Source of the DNA: Anaeromyxobacter sp.
Lineage (GTDB): Bacteria; Myxococcota; Myxococcia; Myxococcales; Anaeromyxobacteraceae
Reading direction: 5' to 3'
Length of the DNA: 64,000 nucleotides
NCBI GenBank assembly: GCA_049840735.1
Contig: JASGJN010000021.1
Span: 128,001-192,000, forward strand
The notes below the pieces were generated by a model. That model saw only the letters and a list, made by a program, of their open reading frames with translations, was not told the origin of the DNA and searched no databases. Shown here one piece after another: positions 5,146 through 51,846 of this stretch; the first letter of the stretch is position 1; each line of letters begins with the position of its first letter. Position numbers and translations under genes: made by a program.

Positions 5146-5218
5146 CCTTCGACTCCGCCTGCCCTGAGCGGAGCGCCCGCGAGGCGGGCGCGGAGTCGAA
5201 GGGCTCAGGCCGAACGGG
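5146..5218. repeat. Nested REP-like hairpin after dnaJ
   Basis: CCTTCGACTCCG[CCTGCCCTGAGCGGAG...CGGAGTCGAAGG]GCTCAGGCCGAACGGG. Confidence 0.85.
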
Positions 5219-11827: not shown

Positions 11828-11905
11828 CCCCGGTCGCCCTTCGACTCCGGCCCGCAGCTCAGCGCGACTGAGCCCACCACGGGCCTACGCTCAGGGTGAC
11901 CGGGG
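11828..11905. repeat. REP-like hairpin
   Basis: CCCCGGTCGCCCTTCGACTCCG...CCTACGCTCAGGGTGACCGGGG. Confidence 0.85.
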
Positions 11906-11933
11906 TGCTCCCGTGCGCCGGCCGCGGACCCTT

Positions 11934-12471
11934 CCGTGCGTCCTGAGCGTAGGGCCCGGGGCCGCATGCCCCCGGCGGACCCACCGGGCCCGGAGTCGAA
12001 GGATGAACGGGACCGATCCGGGGTCCGCTCCGCCGCCCGGGTCCCTCTCCGTGCGTCCTGAGCGTAGGGCCCGGGGCCGCATGCCCCTGGCGGACCCACC
12101 GGGCCCGGAGTCGAAGGATGAACGGGACCGGGGTCCGCTCCGCCGCCCGGGTCCCTCTCCGTTCGTCCTGAGCGTAGGGCCCGGGGCCGCATGCCCCCGG
12201 CGGACCCACCGGGCCCGGAGTCGAAGGATGAACGGGACCGATTCCGGGGTCCGCTCCGCCGCCTGGGTCCCTCTCCGTTCGTCCTGAGCGTAGGGCCCGG
12301 CGCAGCCTGCCCCCGGCGGACCCACCGGGCCCGGAGTCGAAGGATGAACGGGACCGATCCGGGGTCCGCTCCGCCGCCCGGGTCCCTCTCCGTTCGTCCT
12401 GAGCGTAGGGCCCGGGGCCGCATGCCCCTGGCGGACCCACCGGGCCCGGAGTCGAAGGATGAACGGGACCG
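11934..12471 (+). repeat. Tandem array of five ~110-116 bp REP-containing units
   Basis: Units start at 11934, 12049, 12159, 12275, 12390; each CCGT(T/G)CGTCCTGAGCGTAGGGCCCGG...CCGGGCCCGGAGTCGAAGGATGAACGGG plus linker. Confidence 0.95.
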
Positions 12472-17366: not shown

Positions 17367-17725
17367 CCCCCGGTCGCCCTTCGACTCCGGCCCGCCATCG
17401 GTCGCAACAGGCTGGAGACGGGCCTACGCTCAGGGTGACCGGGGGTGAACCAGCAGCTGACCGGACCCGTATCCGTTCGTCCCGGGCGCAGGGCCCAGCG
17501 CTGCGTGCGATGGGCGGACCGCCGGGCCAGGTGACCGGGGGTTATCCTGTGCGCCTCCCATCCGTTCGTCCTGAGCGTAGGGCCCGGCGCTGCGTGCGCG
17601 AGCCGGAGCACCGGGCCCGGAGTCGAAGGATGAACGGGACCGAAAGCGGCTCCCGCTTGGCGCTTCGGCCCGCCGTCCGGTTCCACCTGGAGCATGACGG
17701 GCCTACGCCAAGGGTGACCGGGGGT
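17367..17725. repeat. Cluster of 3-4 REP-like hairpins (some degenerate)
   Basis: Arms at 17377-17445, 17562-17641 and degenerate copies at ~17471-17541 and ~17662-17725. Confidence 0.8.
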
Positions 17726-31270: not shown

Positions 31271-31891
31271 GTGAACCAGCTCTTCGGCCGCCGCGAGGTG
31301 GACGCGCTGCAGGAGCTGGCCTCCATCGGCTGCGGCCAGGCCATCACGGCCCTGGGCAAGCTGGCCGGTCACCGGCTGGAGATGGACGTGCCGGAGGCCT
31401 GGCTCTCGGCCCAGGCCGGCGCCATCGCCGCCTTCCTGGACGCGCTCTCGACCGACATCGTCACGGTGGGCGTGAAGCTGGAGGGGCCGCTCACCGGCGA
31501 CCTGCTGCTGGCCCTCCCGGAGCGCGACGCCGAGGCGCTGGCGGCGATGCTGGGCTTCCCGCCGGACAGCACCGGCCCGGACGGCCCGCGCTGGGCGGGC
31601 ATGGCGGAGAGCGCGCTGATGGAGTCCGGCAACATCGTGGGGAGCGCCTTCGTCTCCGCGGTGGGCACGCTCTGCCGCGAGAAGCTGCTGCTCTCCATCC
31701 CCACGCTGGTCCGCGGCAGCGGCCGCGCCTGCGTCGAGGCCCTCGTCTCCCACGCCGGGTCCGTCGCGCTGGCAACCCGCTTCACCGCCGGCGCGCAGGG
31801 CAAGCACAAGCTGGAGGGGCTGATCCTGGTGATGCCCGAGCCGGCCAAGATCGCCCGCCTGCTGGGGCACCTGCTGAAGCCGGAGGAGTAG
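31271..31891 (+). CDS. cheC: CheC phosphatase (DifG-like)
   Basis: DALQELASIGCG, SALMESGNI. Confidence 0.88.
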   Translation: MNQLFGRREVDALQELASIGCGQAITALGKLAGHRLEMDVPEAWLSAQAGAIAAFLDALSTDIVTVGVKLEGPLTGDLLLALPERDAEALAAMLGFPPDSTGPDGPRWAGMAESALMESGNIVGSAFVSAVGTLCREKLLLSIPTLVRGSGRACVEALVSHAGSVALATRFTAGAQGKHKLEGLILVMPEPAKIARLLGHLLKPEE

Positions 31892-31910
31892 GGGCGGGCG
31901 CGGTCCCTGG

Positions 31911-31951
31911 CCTTCGACTTCGCCGCCGCCGGTGGCGGCGGCTACGCTCAG
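31911..31951 (+). repeat. Left part of REP-like hairpin interrupted by the IS110-family element (continues at 33381-33390)
   Basis: CCTTCGACTTCG-hairpin-CTACGCTCAG | GCCGAACGGG. Confidence 0.9.
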
Positions 31952-32038
31952 ATGGAATGAAGCGGCTGGCCTCCACCTCGGGGTGGTGGCACGAATGCCC
32001 CACAACGCGGTCAGAGCCGCAGAGAGTGGAGACCAGCC

Positions 32039-33070
32039 GTGGACCATATTGGCATCGACCTGCACAAGAAGGACAGCCAGCTTTGCATCCTGAACGCGGA
32101 GGGCGGGGTTCTGGAGGTGCGGATCCCCACCCGGGCCGACCGGTTCGCCGAGGTGCTCGCGAACAGGCCGCGGGCCAAGCTCCTGCTGGAGGCCTCCACG
32201 GAAAGCGAATGGGTGGCGCGGCACATCGAATCGCTCGGGCACGAAGTGATCGTGGCCGACCCGAATTACGCGCCGATGTACGGGACGCGGACGAGGCGGG
32301 TAAAGACCGATCGGCGAGATGCCCGAGCGCTGGCCGAGGCTTGCCGTTCAGGGACCTACCGAGCGGCCCACCGGAGGTCGGAATCCAGGCGGACGGTCGC
32401 TGTCCGCTTGTCGGTGAGAGACACGCTGGTCCGCACCAGGTCGCGGTTCATCACGGTGACCCGGACGTCCTTGCGGAGCCATGGGCTACGGGCCCCGAGC
32501 TGTGAAGCCGAGCACTTCGCGCGGGTGGTGTTGGAGATGGCCCTGCCGGACGAGGTCCGCGACGAGGTCGAGCCGTTGCTGCTGATGTTCGACACGCTGA
32601 ACGCCCGGATCGCCAAGGCCGACGCTGACCTCGAGGCCATCGCCCGCGACAGCGCAGTGGTACGGAGGCTCACGACGGCGCCAGGCGTGGGCGTCGTGAC
32701 GGCCATTGCGTACGACGTCGTCATCGATGATCCCAAGCGCTTCCAGAGTGCCCAGCAGGTGTCCGCCTACTGCGGCCTGGTCCCTAGCGAGCTGAGCTCG
32801 GGCGAGAAACAGCGCAAGGGGCGGATCACCAAGACCGGCAACGCCAGGGTGCGCTGGCTTCTCGTCCAGGCCGCGCACTGCGTCTTGCGCAGCAAGAGCG
32901 CAGAGTCGCTGCCGCTGCGCGAATGGGCGGGGAAGATCCACCGGCGGAGGGGACGCGCAGTCGCCGTCGTGGCGCTGGCGCGCAAACTCTCCGGAATCCT
33001 GTTCGCGATGATGAGGGACGGGAAGGACTTCGACGGCAGCCGCACCTGCAGGGGAAACGCGATGGCCTAG
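32039..33070 (+). CDS. IS110-family DEDD recombinase/transposase
   Basis: GIDLHK, LLEAS, KTDRRDA (RuvC-like DEDD); TAPGVG, GLVPSELSSG (catalytic Ser loop); VALARKL. Confidence 0.96.
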   Translation: MDHIGIDLHKKDSQLCILNAEGGVLEVRIPTRADRFAEVLANRPRAKLLLEASTESEWVARHIESLGHEVIVADPNYAPMYGTRTRRVKTDRRDARALAEACRSGTYRAAHRRSESRRTVAVRLSVRDTLVRTRSRFITVTRTSLRSHGLRAPSCEAEHFARVVLEMALPDEVRDEVEPLLLMFDTLNARIAKADADLEAIARDSAVVRRLTTAPGVGVVTAIAYDVVIDDPKRFQSAQQVSAYCGLVPSELSSGEKQRKGRITKTGNARVRWLLVQAAHCVLRSKSAESLPLREWAGKIHRRRGRAVAVVALARKLSGILFAMMRDGKDFDGSRTCRGNAMA

Positions 33071-33365
33071 ACGACCGAAATCGGACCCAGTCGGGCGGAC
33101 GCCGGGCCGGAGATCCGGGAGTGAGGCGAAAGCGGGTTTCGAGACAGGGTGAGCGCGAGTTCGGCCTTGGCTGGTCACCAGGAACGGCCGTCGCTCAGAT
33201 GGCGCCCCCTGCTCGAATCCCCCACTGCGCCGGCGGCACTGCCGCCCCTGTCGAGCGCGAATAGAAGGCTGATGGAACTCGCGTTCGCCTGACTCCCTGA
33301 CCGATGGCCAACCAGCGCCGCCCAGGCTTCAGGACAAACGACATCACCGGCCCTTGACCGGGGAC
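33071..33365 (+). ncRNA. Putative bridge/seek RNA of the IS1111-type element (boundaries approximate)
   Basis: Structured NCR with GTTCGGCCT (33159-67), CGCTCAG (33192-98) matching the target and ATAGAAG (33261-67) matching the element end. Confidence 0.7.
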
Positions 33366-33472
33366 GCCGCTTCATAGAAGGCCGAACGGGGTTGCTGCAA
33401 CGGCCTGGCCGAGACGGGATGGCGCGGTCAGGCCGAGTGCGTGACGCAGTCAGGCCGAGCAGGCTTCACGGT

Positions 33473-33522
33473 CCGTTCGGGCTGAGCGTAGCGAGCCCGC
33501 AGGGCTCGCGGAGTCGAAGCCC
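33473..33522. repeat. REP-like hairpin
   Basis: CCGTTCGGGCTGAGCGTAG...CGGAGTCGAAGCCC. Confidence 0.85.
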
Positions 33523-33549
33523 AGGCTCATCCGCACGCGTCGACTGCGC

Positions 33550-34110
33550 TCACCCCAGCCGCTTCACCATCCGCGCCACCTCGCAGTCGAGGTCGCCCAC
33601 GCGGCACACCTTGCGGTGCACCTCGCTGAACCCGCAGCGCTCCCAGAAGGCGCGGCCGCGGGGGTTCTGGGCCACCACGGCCAGATACAGCGTGGTGAAC
33701 CCCTCGCCGCGCGCCCAGGCCTCGGCGGCGCGGAAGACGCGGTCGCCCAGGCCGGCGCCGCGGACCTCGGGCAGGAGCACCTGGAGCCCGAGGAAGCAGT
33801 CTCGCGGCTCGGGGAAGGCGCGCAGCAGCTCCACCGCGCCCACCAGCCGGCCGTCGGCGCGCCGGACGCCGAACACCGCCTTGTCGGCGGCGCTGCGGCC
33901 GGGCGGCACGTTGCCGAACAGGTCCTCCAGCTGGGCGTCGGAGGGCTCGCGCCCCTCGGACATGCGGACGTAGTCGGCGCAGCCCTGGAAGAGCGCCCGC
34001 AGCTCGGGGCCGTGATCCGGGGTGAGCAGCTCGAAGGCGTGAGCGGGGTCGGGGGGCGCGGGCACTGGGGGCACGGTCGACACGATACCCGGCGGGGAGC
34101 CGGGGAGCAC
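33550..34110 (-). CDS. GNAT acetyltransferase (start uncertain)
   Basis: PEVRGAGLG acetyl-CoA motif, NPRGRAFWERCGF. Confidence 0.88.
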   Translation of the reverse strand: MLPGSPPGIVSTVPPVPAPPDPAHAFELLTPDHGPELRALFQGCADYVRMSEGREPSDAQLEDLFGNVPPGRSAADKAVFGVRRADGRLVGAVELLRAFPEPRDCFLGLQVLLPEVRGAGLGDRVFRAAEAWARGEGFTTLYLAVVAQNPRGRAFWERCGFSEVHRKVCRVGDLDCEVARMVKRLG

Positions 34111-42845: not shown

Positions 42846-43090
42846 CCCGTTCACCCTTCGACTCCGCGAGCCGGCCTGGAAACGGGCCGGCTCGCTACGT
42901 TGGGGGCGCCACCCGCGGCAGCCCGACCGCACCGCCGCGACTCCGCGCCCGCGGGGCGGGCGCTACGCTCAGGACGACCGGGAGGACCACCCGGGCCGGC
43001 CGTGGGCAATCCCGTTCGTCCTGAGCGTAGGGCCCGGGGCCGGACCACCGTCGCGGCACGCCCGGGCCCGGAGTCGAAGGATGAACGGGG
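42846..43090. repeat. Cluster of three REP-like hairpins
   Basis: Arms at ~42855-42900, ~42938-42982 and 43012-43090. Confidence 0.82.
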
Positions 43091-46490: not shown

Positions 46491-46774
46491 GGGCTTCGAC
46501 TCCGCGGCCGCTTCGCGGCCGCTACGCTCAGCCCGAACGGTCAAGCGTGCCGCGCCGGCGAGCGGTCAGGCGTGCCGCGCCGGCGAGCGGCCAGGCGTGC
46601 CGTGCCGGGGAGCGGCCAGGCGTGCCGTGCCGGCGAGCGGTCAGGCGTGCCCGTGCCGGCGAGCGGCCAGGCGTGCCGTGCTGGCGAGCGGTCCCCTCCG
46701 TTCGTCCTGAGCGTAGGGCCCGGCGCGGCGCGCGCAGGCCGGGGCACCGGGCCCGAAGTCGAAGGATGAACGGG
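46491..46774. repeat. Two inverted REP-like hairpins (46491-46540, 46698-46774) enclosing six 25-bp tandem repeats (46545-46693)
   Basis: Unit GCGTGCCG(C/T)GCCGGCGAGCGG(T/C)CAG. Confidence 0.9.
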
Positions 46775-51795: not shown

Positions 51796-51846
51796 CCCGT
51801 TCGGCCTGAGCGTAGCGCCCGCATCCGCGGGCGCGGAGTCGAAGGC
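51796..51846. repeat. REP-like hairpin carrying an intact empty IS target site
   Basis: CCCGTTCGGCCTGAGCGTAGC equals reverse complement of the reconstructed pre-insertion site. Confidence 0.88.

What the first reader, a model, noticed from the sequence alone, without database searches (positions are those of the whole stretch)
31911..33390. IS1111-type IS110 recombinase inserted precisely into the host hairpin repeat, with guide-like segments in its 3' non-coding region
Seen: the element splits a repeat at CTACGCTC|AG|GCCGAACGGG. The AG core (CT on the other strand) appears at both ends. A perfect 10-bp sub-terminal IR lies 5 nt inside the left core and 3 nt inside the right core. The reconstructed 21-nt empty site is present intact at 51796-51816 and partly at 5203-5218. 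The ~300-nt region after the transposase contains GTTCGGCCT (33159-67; reverse complement of core plus right target AGGCCGAAC), CGCTCAG (33192-98; left target plus core) and ATAGAAG (33261-67; element right end plus core). The first two flank a short stem (TGGCTG/CGGCCG). Known: IS110/IS1111 recombinases use a bridge/seek RNA, located downstream of the gene in the IS1111 group, and IS621 and ISPa11 target REPs. Inference: this is an intact RNA-guided recombinase programmed against this myxobacterial repeat family. The second donor guide is not clearly visible. GTTCGGCCT could alternatively pair within a long stem with 33266-33286.
Basis: partly seen in the sequence, partly recalled or inferred. 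Interest (0 to 1): 0.9.

Follow-up and report, generated by a model that had tools for sequence, protein, structure and literature searches.

The report
RNA-guided IS1111-type element in host repeat
This is an intact jumping gene of the known RNA-guided IS110/IS1111 kind that carries its own guide RNA and lands only in one sub-type of a short repeat scattered through its host genome; it is a well-documented new member of a known family, not a new mechanism.

Summary
Window 31952-33380 is a 1429-bp IS with AG at both junctions, 10-bp subterminal inverted repeats, a 343-aa IS110-family recombinase gene and a 310-nt 3' non-coding end. The genome holds 5 copies, and 5 of 5 sit at CTACGCTCAG|GCCGAACGG in different repeat copies. 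A further 101 sites are empty.

The guide reading is supported mainly by comparison, because the window's own matches are only modestly improbable (both together in 19 of 5000 shuffles). About 150 loci encoding recombinases 52-67% identical carry the same folded 3' RNA.
- 33159-33168 covaries with the right flank.
- 33192-33201 covaries with the left flank plus the first 3 nt of the element.
- 33260-33267 covaries with the right end.
No shuffle of 5000 reached the observed value in any of these tests, and the first two were repeated on held-out metagenome loci.

A guide for the left end was not found; three candidates failed. RNA expression, circle formation and activity are untested.

Verdict: a new member of a known kind (IS1111 group, seekRNA/bridge RNA, REP-type targeting as in ISPa11 and IS621). 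This scan has reported the same kind on other DNA before.

The parts
31907..31951 (+). Left part of the interrupted host repeat. It consists of CTGGCCTTCGACTTCG, a 9-bp hairpin (31922-30 / 31934-42), then TACGCTC + core AG. The left target half read by the RNA is CGCTC (31945-49).
   Evidence: 101 genomic copies share this layout, each with a different self-complementary stem.
31952..31966 (+). Left end of the element: 5-nt terminal extension ATGGA plus the left subterminal inverted repeat ATGAAGCGGC (31957-66).
   Evidence: The repeat is conserved in orthologues.
32039..33070 (+). Recombinase gene, 343 aa, GTG start, intact. It has a DEDD/RuvC-like N-domain and a Tnp C-domain with the GLVPSELSSG motif.
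   Evidence: Pfam PF01548 and PF02371. NCBIfam NF033542, 249.5 bits against a cut-off of 140. Sequence matches to the solved ISCro4 and IS621 recombinases.
33105..33309 (+). Predicted guide RNA domain (bridge/long seekRNA), closed by a long outer stem P0 (about 33105-37 with 33278-309).
   Evidence: MFE -108.4 kcal/mol, z -3.6. P0 cognate duplex energy -29.7 against -21.2 kcal/mol non-cognate, 0 of 2000 shuffles. Covariance model R1 hits at 33133-33299 (C21:161133-161299), 115.8 bits.
33140..33215 (+). Target-binding arm. Stem P1 pairs 33140-56 with 33202-15 and encloses an internal loop and the inner hairpin 33169-89.
   Evidence: On A2, 91% of cells are paired against 55% or less for slid controls. 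14 pairs show compensatory change, 0 of 500 shuffles. Among the five copies, 33172 is T or C, giving G-U or G-C in the inner stem.
33159..33168 (+). T guide (pairs with the top strand). GTTCGGC pairs with the right target GCCGAAC, CT with core AG, and the final T with the last A of the element's right end.
   Evidence: Cognate longest pairing run 7.4 against 3.8 non-cognate (34 distinct guides), 0 of 5000 shuffles. Held-out set: 6.9 against 3.7 (27 guides), 0 of 5000.
33192..33201 (+). B guide (same sense as the top strand, so it pairs with the bottom strand): CGCTC (left target) + AG (core) + ATG (first 3 nt of the element).
   Evidence: Cognate 7.6 against 4.2 (46 distinct guides), 0 of 5000 shuffles. 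Held-out set: 8.8 against 4.5 (26 guides), 0 of 5000. The 3 nt after the core match the element start at 2.46 of 3 against 0.39 of 3 for the right target (n=59).
33216..33258 (+). Junction strand AATCCCCCACT (33216-26), then stem P2 (GCGC 33227-30 with 33255-58) enclosing hairpin 33232-37 / 33241-46.
   Evidence: helices 3 and 4; 5 of 6 hairpin pairs show compensatory change. The junction strand was tested as a left-end guide and not supported (636 of 5000 shuffles).
33260..33269 (+). Donor guide for the right end: AATAGAAG, same sense as the right end CATAGAAG including the core, followed by GC, which equals the first 2 nt of the right target.
   Evidence: Column-to-column identity 36 of 36 at the variable position. 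One locus per distinct right end, n=16: 5.81 against 3.87, 0 of 5000 shuffles. The held-out set had only 4 distinct ends: 1244 of 5000.
33354..33359 (+). -35-like TTGACC facing outward, 12 nt before the right inverted repeat. It is the likely upstream half of a junction promoter that is complete only in the circular form.
   Evidence: TTGAC sits at this fixed place in 45 of 65 orthologous loci, and at least 4 of 5 bases in 50 of 65. No complete sigma-70-like promoter is found in the integrated element. The role is inferred from PMC12288879 and PMC11187229.
33366..33380 (+). Right end: subterminal inverted repeat GCCGCTTCAT (33366-75), extension AGA, core AG (33379-80).
33381..33389 (+). Right part of the interrupted host repeat, GCCGAACGG. 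The right target half read by the RNA is GCCGAAC (33381-87).

Best explanation
An intact IS1111-group (IS110-family) insertion sequence. It encodes a DEDD/Tnp recombinase and, downstream of the gene, a roughly 200-nt structured RNA that specifies where the element goes.

In the target-binding arm, two strands of an internal loop read the site.
- The 5' strand (33159-68) pairs with the top strand of core plus right half-site (AG+GCCGAAC).
- The 3' strand (33192-201) pairs with the bottom strand of left half-site plus core (CGCTC+AG).
This sets both position and orientation within one sub-family of a host repeat.

A third segment (33260-67) reads the element's own right end plus core. Recombination is at the shared AG, so nothing is duplicated.

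Shown here: anatomy, site specificity, conserved fold and guide-flank covariation.

Inferred from the family (PMC11187229, PMC11208160, PMC11208158): RNA-protein complex, circular intermediate, junction promoter and strand exchange at the core.
For: Family:
- Pfam PF01548 and PF02371.
- NF033542 'IS110 family RNA-guided transposase', 249.5 bits.
- Matches to the ISCro4 and IS621 chains with the IGID, LEA-ST, KTDxxDA and SG motifs aligned.

Site specificity:
- 5 of 5 copies lie at the same 19-nt site in five different hairpin contexts.
- 101 sites are empty.
- All 5 insertions are in the GCCGAAC sub-family, which is 106 of 382 repeat ends of the four main types plus CACGAAC.

RNA:
- The fold has z -3.6.
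- The structure is backed by compensatory changes: 91% of cells paired, 0 of 500 shuffles.
- Model R1 hits 74 of 80 sources at E<=1e-15 (43 of these are seeds) and 72 of 80 held-out metagenome loci.
- R1 hits exactly the 5 IS copies in the own genome.

Guides:
- Covariation tests, with the two target guides repeated on held-out loci.
- The order T then B is as reported for IS1111 seekRNAs (PMC11187229, sections read).

Recent activity: two copies are identical, the other three are about 99% identical, and 3 of 5 have intact frames.
Against: - No RNA data: no sequencing run was listed. Transcription, processing and binding are therefore unshown.
- No circle junction is present in the assembly: 0 hits. 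This is expected for an assembly and is uninformative.
- No guide for the left end was found.
- In this element the junction strand matches the left end worse than in most orthologues.
- Within the single element the guide matches are not very improbable (19 of 5000 shuffles for both).
- 2 of 5 copies are frameshifted.
- Some orthologous loci have flanks that do not fit their guide: L067, L069, L078, L097, L109.
Confidence: 0.92

Rival explanations
1. Target choice is made by the protein, or by the hairpin shape of the repeat. The complementary stretches in the 3' end are then chance, or a captured repeat fragment.
For: In the single element the matches are only modestly unlikely. The target is a structured repeat.
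Against: The same RNA positions change in step with the flanks across 34 and 46 distinct guides, 0 of 5000 shuffles. This repeats in 27 and 26 held-out guides. Orthologues target many unrelated sequences while keeping the scaffold.
Confidence: 0.03
2. Only the target-binding arm (about 33140-33215, a short seekRNA) is needed. The element's ends are recognised by the protein through the subterminal repeats, and by the 1-3 nt by which the two target guides run into the element. The right-end guide region is accessory, and no RNA guide for the left end exists.
For: Three candidate left-end guides failed (636, 2251 and 2405 of 5000 shuffles). The B guide's last 3 nt match the element start, not the target (2.46 against 0.39 of 3). 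For ISEc11 an 82-nt seekRNA alone supported transposition, and flanking target was needed for excision (PMC11187229, sections read).
Against: The right-end guide covaries with the right end (36 of 36; 0 of 5000). The outer stem and second arm are conserved with compensatory changes, which argues for function. Indels in the junction strand may hide a real left-end guide (one search shows partial complementarity in several groups).
Confidence: 0.35
3. The copies are relics. The element spread in the past and is no longer mobile in this genome.
For: 2 of 5 copies carry frameshifts. No promoter is found in the integrated form. Only 5 of 106 perfect sites are occupied.
Against: Two copies are 100% identical over 1429 bp at different loci, and three frames are intact. 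The RNA model scores are the same in all copies. Promoter-less integrated copies are normal for this family (PMC11187229).
Confidence: 0.12

Closest known systems
ISPa11 (IS1111 group; targets a Pseudomonas aeruginosa REP; seekRNA co-purified with its transposase; PMC11187229)
   Same: Subterminal inverted repeats, long 3' NCR, top-strand match 5' of bottom-strand match, and insertion at one position and orientation in a host extragenic repeat.
   Different: Different host and target sequence. Protein identity was not measured here because no ISPa11 sequence was on hand. Nothing here is shown experimentally.
ISEc11 (IS1111 group; 82-nt and 154-nt seekRNAs; junction promoter; PMC11187229)
   Same: Recombinase of 330-350 aa with a GL-P----SG motif, terminal extensions outside the inverted repeats, no target duplication, and guides that overlap at the insertion point.
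   Different: Targets a non-repeat 12-nt site. Here the RNA is a three-way junction closed by a roughly 30-bp stem, and the B guide runs 3 nt into the element.
IS621 (IS110 group; bridge RNA; solved structures 8wt6 etc.; PMC11208160, PMC11208158)
   Same: Same protein family (phmmer E 9e-13), REP targeting, a 2-nt core, guides on both strands, and a 1-nt handshake-like extension of the top-strand guide.
   Different: In IS621 the RNA is encoded upstream in the left end, the guide order is reversed, both loops are simple internal loops with four clear guides, and there are no long subterminal repeats.
ISPpu9 / ISPpu10 (IS110 group, Pseudomonas putida REPs; PMC12288879)
   Same: REP targeting, and recombination at an invariant AG dinucleotide.
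   Different: IS110-group layout (RNA upstream, no subterminal repeats). ISPpu9 has its own strong promoter and extra small RNAs.

Membership tests
IS110 family RNA-guided recombinase | N-terminal DEDD (RuvC-like) domain plus C-terminal Tnp domain | tested here: met
   PF01548 (3.1e-13) and PF02371 (1.1e-23). NF033542, 249.5 bits against a cut-off of 140.
IS110 family RNA-guided recombinase | Catalytic D, E, D, D and the serine of the SG motif | tested here: met
   IGID (D7), LEAST (E51), KTDRRDA (D91, D94) and SSG (S254) align to the same motifs of the solved ISCro4 chain. D7, E51, D91, S254 and G255 are invariant in the 9-sequence alignment A1; D94 is the consensus residue but is not in A1's invariant-column list. 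Residue roles are taken from IS621 (PMC11208158).
IS1111 group | Subterminal inverted repeats of 7-17 bp with short terminal extensions | tested here: met
   10-bp perfect repeat, 5 nt and 3 nt inside the core. Conserved in orthologues.
IS1111 group | Long non-coding region downstream of the gene; transposase 330-350 aa with GL-P----S(t)G | tested here: met
   310-nt 3' NCR against an 87-nt 5' leader. 343 aa with GLVPSELSSG. Criteria from PMC11187229.
IS1111 group | Site- and orientation-specific insertion without target duplication | tested here: met
   5 of 5 copies at the same site and orientation. One AG is shared between site and element. Intact sites carry a single AG.
seekRNA / bridge RNA | [quoted passage not shown] | tested here: met
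seekRNA / bridge RNA | Donor-binding guides for both element ends | tested here: inconclusive
   The right-end guide is supported. A left-end guide was not found.
seekRNA / bridge RNA | RNA is transcribed and bound by the recombinase; circular intermediate with a junction promoter | not testable with these tools
   No run was listed. Only a conserved -35-like box in the right end was found.
REP / REPIN (RAYT-associated repeats) as the target | Abundant extragenic palindromic repeat linked to a Y1 (RAYT) transposase | tested here: inconclusive
   The repeat is abundant and hairpin-bearing. Six Y1_Tnp matches exist in the genome, but none of the four loci looked at carries the repeat in the stretches fetched, about 1.5 kb on each side of the match.

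The most novel reading that the evidence does not exclude
In this soil-bacterial IS1111 clade, both target guides are written against the integrated junctions rather than the empty site.
- The B guide reads left target + core + the first 3 nt of the element.
- The T guide reads right target + core + the last nt of the element.
- No RNA segment covaries with the rest of the left end.

If real, the left end is recognised by a short bottom-strand 'handshake' plus protein contacts to the subterminal repeat. That would be a three-guide logic distinct from the four-guide scheme solved for IS621. It would also explain why IS1111 excision needs the flanking target.
Probability: 0.3. Interest if true: 0.55.

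Novelty: new member of a known kind. Interest (0 to 1): 0.35.

Why it matters
It adds a cleanly bounded, probably active RNA-guided recombinase from a high-GC host. Its natural target family and its discrimination between one-base variants of that target are both visible in one genome.

The roughly 150 orthologous loci collected here give several dozen natural guide/target pairs on one conserved scaffold. That is a ready-made reprogramming table for an IS1111-type system. It also points to an open question for this group, namely how the left end is recognised.

It does not change what is known about the family.

Tried and rejected
- **Rfam:** the scan of 31500-33900 found no relevant family; the three hits at E 3-7 were noise.
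- **DNA relatives:** 60 related genomes gave only short chance hits. The nearest protein relatives are 67% identical (one 1367-bp contig, L059) and otherwise 59% or less.
- **Left-end guide candidates (all):** junction strand 33216-26 by complementarity, 636 of 5000 shuffles (n=29 distinct ends; 1114 of 5000 in the smaller set). 3' half of the donor loop (33268-77) by complementarity, 2251 of 5000, and by identity, 2405 of 5000.
- **Mutual-information scan:** it recovered the B and right-end guides but is blurred by indels for the T guide and the left end.
- **Right-end guide in the held-out set:** only 4 distinct ends, 1244 of 5000 shuffles.
- **RAYT link of the host repeat:** not found.
- **Sequencing runs:** none was listed and there was no RNA holder.
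- **Promoter/terminator scan:** none in the integrated element.
- **Timed-out script:** timed out and was rerun in faster form.
- **Earlier scan notes near this place:** none.
Full report
**What is there.** The sequence shows a 1429-bp element at 31952-33380.
- AG stands at both junctions (31950-51 and 33379-80).
- The left end is ATGGA followed by ATGAAGCGGC (31957-66).
- The right end is GCCGCTTCAT (33366-75) followed by AGA and AG.
- One long frame (32039-33070, 343 aa) carries PF01548 and PF02371.
- It reaches 249.5 bits on NCBIfam NF033542, 'IS110 family RNA-guided transposase', cut-off 140.
- It matches the solved ISCro4 and IS621 recombinase chains (E 1.3e-15 and 9.1e-13). The IGID, LEA-ST, KTDxxDA and SG motifs line up in the printed ISCro4 alignment.
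- By the criteria in PMC11187229 (section read) it belongs to the IS1111 group. Those criteria are subterminal repeats, terminal extensions, a long downstream NCR (310 nt here), a 330-350-aa protein and a GL-P----SG motif (GLVPSELSSG here).

**Site specificity.**
- The own genome (6.67 Mb, 26 contigs) has 5 copies: two identical and three about 99% identical.
- 5 of 5 copies are flanked by CTACGCTCAG on the left and GCCGAACGG on the right. Each sits after a different self-complementary GC-rich stem, so these are independent insertions into different members of one repeat family.
- The repeat unit is CTGGCCTTCGACTCCG + variable hairpin + CTACGCTCAGGCCGAACGG.
- The 14-mer specified by the guides occurs intact 101 times. 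One of these is in the window at 51797-51815 on the minus strand.
- After CGCTCAG the family splits into GGCGAAC (118), GCCGAAC (101 empty plus 5 occupied), CCCGAAC (80), GACGAAC (69) and CACGAAC (9).
- All five insertions are in the GCCGAAC type, which is 106 of 382. If the types were equivalent this would have probability of about 0.002 (my arithmetic; small n).
- Three copies have intact frames and two are frameshifted.

**The guide-like segments, taken alone.** One search lists every match of 6 nt or more between the NCR and the four junction sequences.
- GTTCGGCCTT (33159-68) is the reverse complement of the right junction (A + AG + GCCGAAC).
- CGCTCAGATGG (33192-202) equals the left junction (CGCTC + AG + ATGG).
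- ATAGAAGGC (33261-69) equals the right junction (ATAGA + AG + GC).
- In dinucleotide shuffles of the NCR, a core-spanning antisense match of 9 nt or more appears in 101 of 5000. A same-sense match of 7 nt or more appears in 850 of 5000. Both appear together in 19 of 5000.

**Comparative evidence.**
- No DNA-level relative was found in 60 related genomes.
- Proteins 52-67% identical are common. 38 of 401 genomes of the phylum sample have a match at E<=1e-40.
- I also fetched 79 loci from genome contigs, spanning Methylomirabilota/Rokubacteria, Gemmatimonadota, Acidobacteriota, Myxococcota and others, and 80 loci from metagenomes.
- Their 3' ends share one scaffold:
  - an outer stem P0;
  - GGGnGGG-U-GA-GCGC-G, a variable 10-11 nt stretch, a GGCC hairpin, another variable 10-11 nt stretch, then G-GCGC-C-CCCnCCC;
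  - a junction strand;
  - GCGC-hairpin-GCGC;
  - then G-AAYAGAAGG.
- RNAalifold recovers the GCGC/GCGC stems and both hairpins.
- With the P1 extension added, 91.0% of 1110 cells pair, against 35-55% when partners are slid by 1-3 columns. 14 of 26 pairs show changes on both sides, and 0 of 500 shuffles reach the covariation score.
- The outer stem P0 is supported by cognate against non-cognate duplex energies: -29.7 against -21.2 kcal/mol, n=43, 0 of 2000 shuffles.
- In this element P0 runs from about 33105-37 to 33278-309. The 216-nt region folds at -108.4 kcal/mol, z -3.6.
- Among the five own copies, 33172 is T in two and C in three, which is G-U against G-C in the inner stem.
- A covariance model built from 43 loci (R1) hits 74 of 80 sources at E<=1e-15. 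Of the six misses, two loci end at the gene, two have truncated genes, and two scored 47-52 bits.
- R1 hits 72 of 80 held-out metagenome loci at E<=1e-10.
- R1 hits exactly the five IS copies in the own genome.

**Guide-flank covariation.** The statistic is the longest uninterrupted run of pairing or identity. Cognate pairs are compared with all non-cognate pairs, with 5000 shuffles of the pairing.

| Test | Set | n | Cognate | Non-cognate | Shuffles reaching observed |
|---|---|---|---|---|---|
| T guide vs right junction | all | 62 | 7.37 | 3.93 | 0 |
| T guide vs right junction | one per distinct guide | 34 | 7.44 | 3.76 | 0 |
| T guide vs right junction | held-out | 27 | 6.93 | 3.74 | 0 |
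| B guide vs left junction | all | 64 | 7.73 | 4.21 | 0 |
| B guide vs left junction | one per distinct guide | 46 | 7.63 | 4.16 | 0 |
| B guide vs left junction | held-out | 26 | 8.77 | 4.50 | 0 |

- The first, smaller run gave the same picture.
- Loci whose end motif had more than one mismatch, or that ran off a contig, were dropped before the counts. In one search this left 65 of 74 with a right end and 64 of 74 with a left end.
- Misfits were kept in the counts. They include L067, L069, L078, L097 and L109, whose flanks do not fit their guides.
- The order (top-strand match 5' of bottom-strand match, overlapping at the core) is the order reported for IS1111 seekRNAs and the reverse of the IS110 group (PMC11187229, sections read).

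**Donor side.**
- The segment after the second GAGCGC (AAYAGAAG) is the same sense as the right end plus core and changes with it:
  - CATAGAAG with AATAGAAG;
  - CACAGAAG with AACAGAAG;
  - CAGAGAAG with AAGAGAAG;
  - CATACAAG with AATACAAG;
  - CATAAAAG with AATAAAAG.
- The variable position is identical in 36 of 36 loci.
- With one locus per distinct right end (n=16), the score is 5.81 against 3.87, 0 of 5000 shuffles.
- The held-out set had only 4 distinct ends and shows nothing (1244 of 5000).
- For the left end I found no guide. The junction strand shows partial complementarity in several groups but fails once redundancy is removed (1114 of 5000; 636 of 5000).
- The 3' half of the donor loop, which contains this element's GATGGAA, fails by complementarity and by identity (2251 and 2405 of 5000).
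- Durrant et al. note that many IS1111 RNAs place donor-binding bases in a multi-loop (PMC11208160, passages). The three-way junction found here fits that remark.

- The three B-guide bases after the core match the element's first three bases, not the right target. The mean is 2.46 of 3 against 0.39 of 3, n=59. ATG/ATG occurs 18 times, TTG/TTG 12 times and AGG/AGG 2 times. On 22 distinct types, 64 of 5000 shuffles reach the observed value.
- The T guide ends with a U opposite the last A of the right end. That base hardly varies, so this cannot be tested.
- Both guides thus fit the integrated junctions or the recombination products.
- This recalls the handshake guides of IS621 (PMC11208158, passages).
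- It also agrees with the finding that IS1111 excision needs the flanking target and that an 82-nt seekRNA suffices for ISEc11 (PMC11187229).
- Whether this is a distinct donor-recognition logic is open. I rate it 0.3.

**Expression.**
- No sigma-70-like promoter or intrinsic terminator is found in the integrated element.
- A -35-like TTGAC lies at a fixed distance before the right repeat in 45 of 65 loci, here TTGACC at 33354-59.
- With a 17-nt spacer the downstream hexamer would be completed only by the left end after circularisation. This is the junction-promoter arrangement described for this family (PMC12288879, passages; PMC11187229). It is inference.
- No sequencing run was listed for this DNA.

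**Comparison and verdict.** What it works like and what it is coincide. It is an IS1111-group RNA-guided insertion sequence that targets a REP-like host repeat, as ISPa11 does in Pseudomonas and as IS621 and ISPpu9/10 (IS110 group) do for their hosts' REPs.
- The defining features that can be tested in silico are met.
- RNA expression, RNA-protein binding and the circular form could not be tested.
- The host repeat's link to a RAYT transposase was looked for and not found.
- I could not compare with ISfinder, so the element may already have a name there.
- Earlier notes of this scan describe the same kind of element on other DNA.
- The finding is correct and well supported, but it is a new member of a known kind.

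Noticed in passing
window 11885-12408, 17424-17580, 42963-43030, 46522-46716: Other members of the same host repeat family, mostly the GACGAAC variant. They include a head-to-tail array with a period of about 115 bp at 11934-12408. None carries the IS.
   Followed up: partly
window 33473-33491 (-): About 90 bp right of the insertion lies an inverted repeat member with one mismatch (CCCGAAC type). The interrupted repeat was therefore half of an inverted pair.
   Followed up: partly
L059 1-1367: The closest relative (67% protein identity, on a 1367-bp MAG contig) has the identical left flank CTACGCTCAG, left end and B guide. Its T guide differs and predicts the right half GATGAGCC. This looks like natural re-aiming of one half-site only. 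The contig ends before its right end, so this is unverified.
   Followed up: partly
L067 2581-3562: The RNA region plus right end is present twice, 768 bp apart. Only the second right end abuts a flank that fits the T guide, with 1 mismatch. About 550 bp of other DNA is thus enclosed between two right ends, a possible cargo-carrying or modular form.
   Followed up: partly
L033 / L077 (same contig) from about 2700: In this orthologue the RNA region is interrupted after the junction strand by unrelated DNA. The model score drops to 51.5 bits.
   Followed up: no
L069 and L109 right ends; L078 right flank: In L069 and L109 the right end reads CATAGCG instead of CATAGAAG. In L078 the flank does not fit the T guide. 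These may be decayed or rearranged copies.
   Followed up: no
own genome C4:42302-43733 and C26:118176-119612: Two of the five copies are frameshifted. The C4 copy has insertions of 2 and 1 bases, and the C26:118176 copy has insertions of 1 and 7 bases. Their RNA regions still score 117.8 bits with the model.
   Followed up: yes
own genome C17:580699-581022, C17:605173-605496 and four weaker places: Y1_Tnp (PF01797) matches exist in the genome. The four loci inspected carry no copy of the targeted repeat in the stretches fetched, about 1.5 kb on each side of the match.
   Followed up: partly
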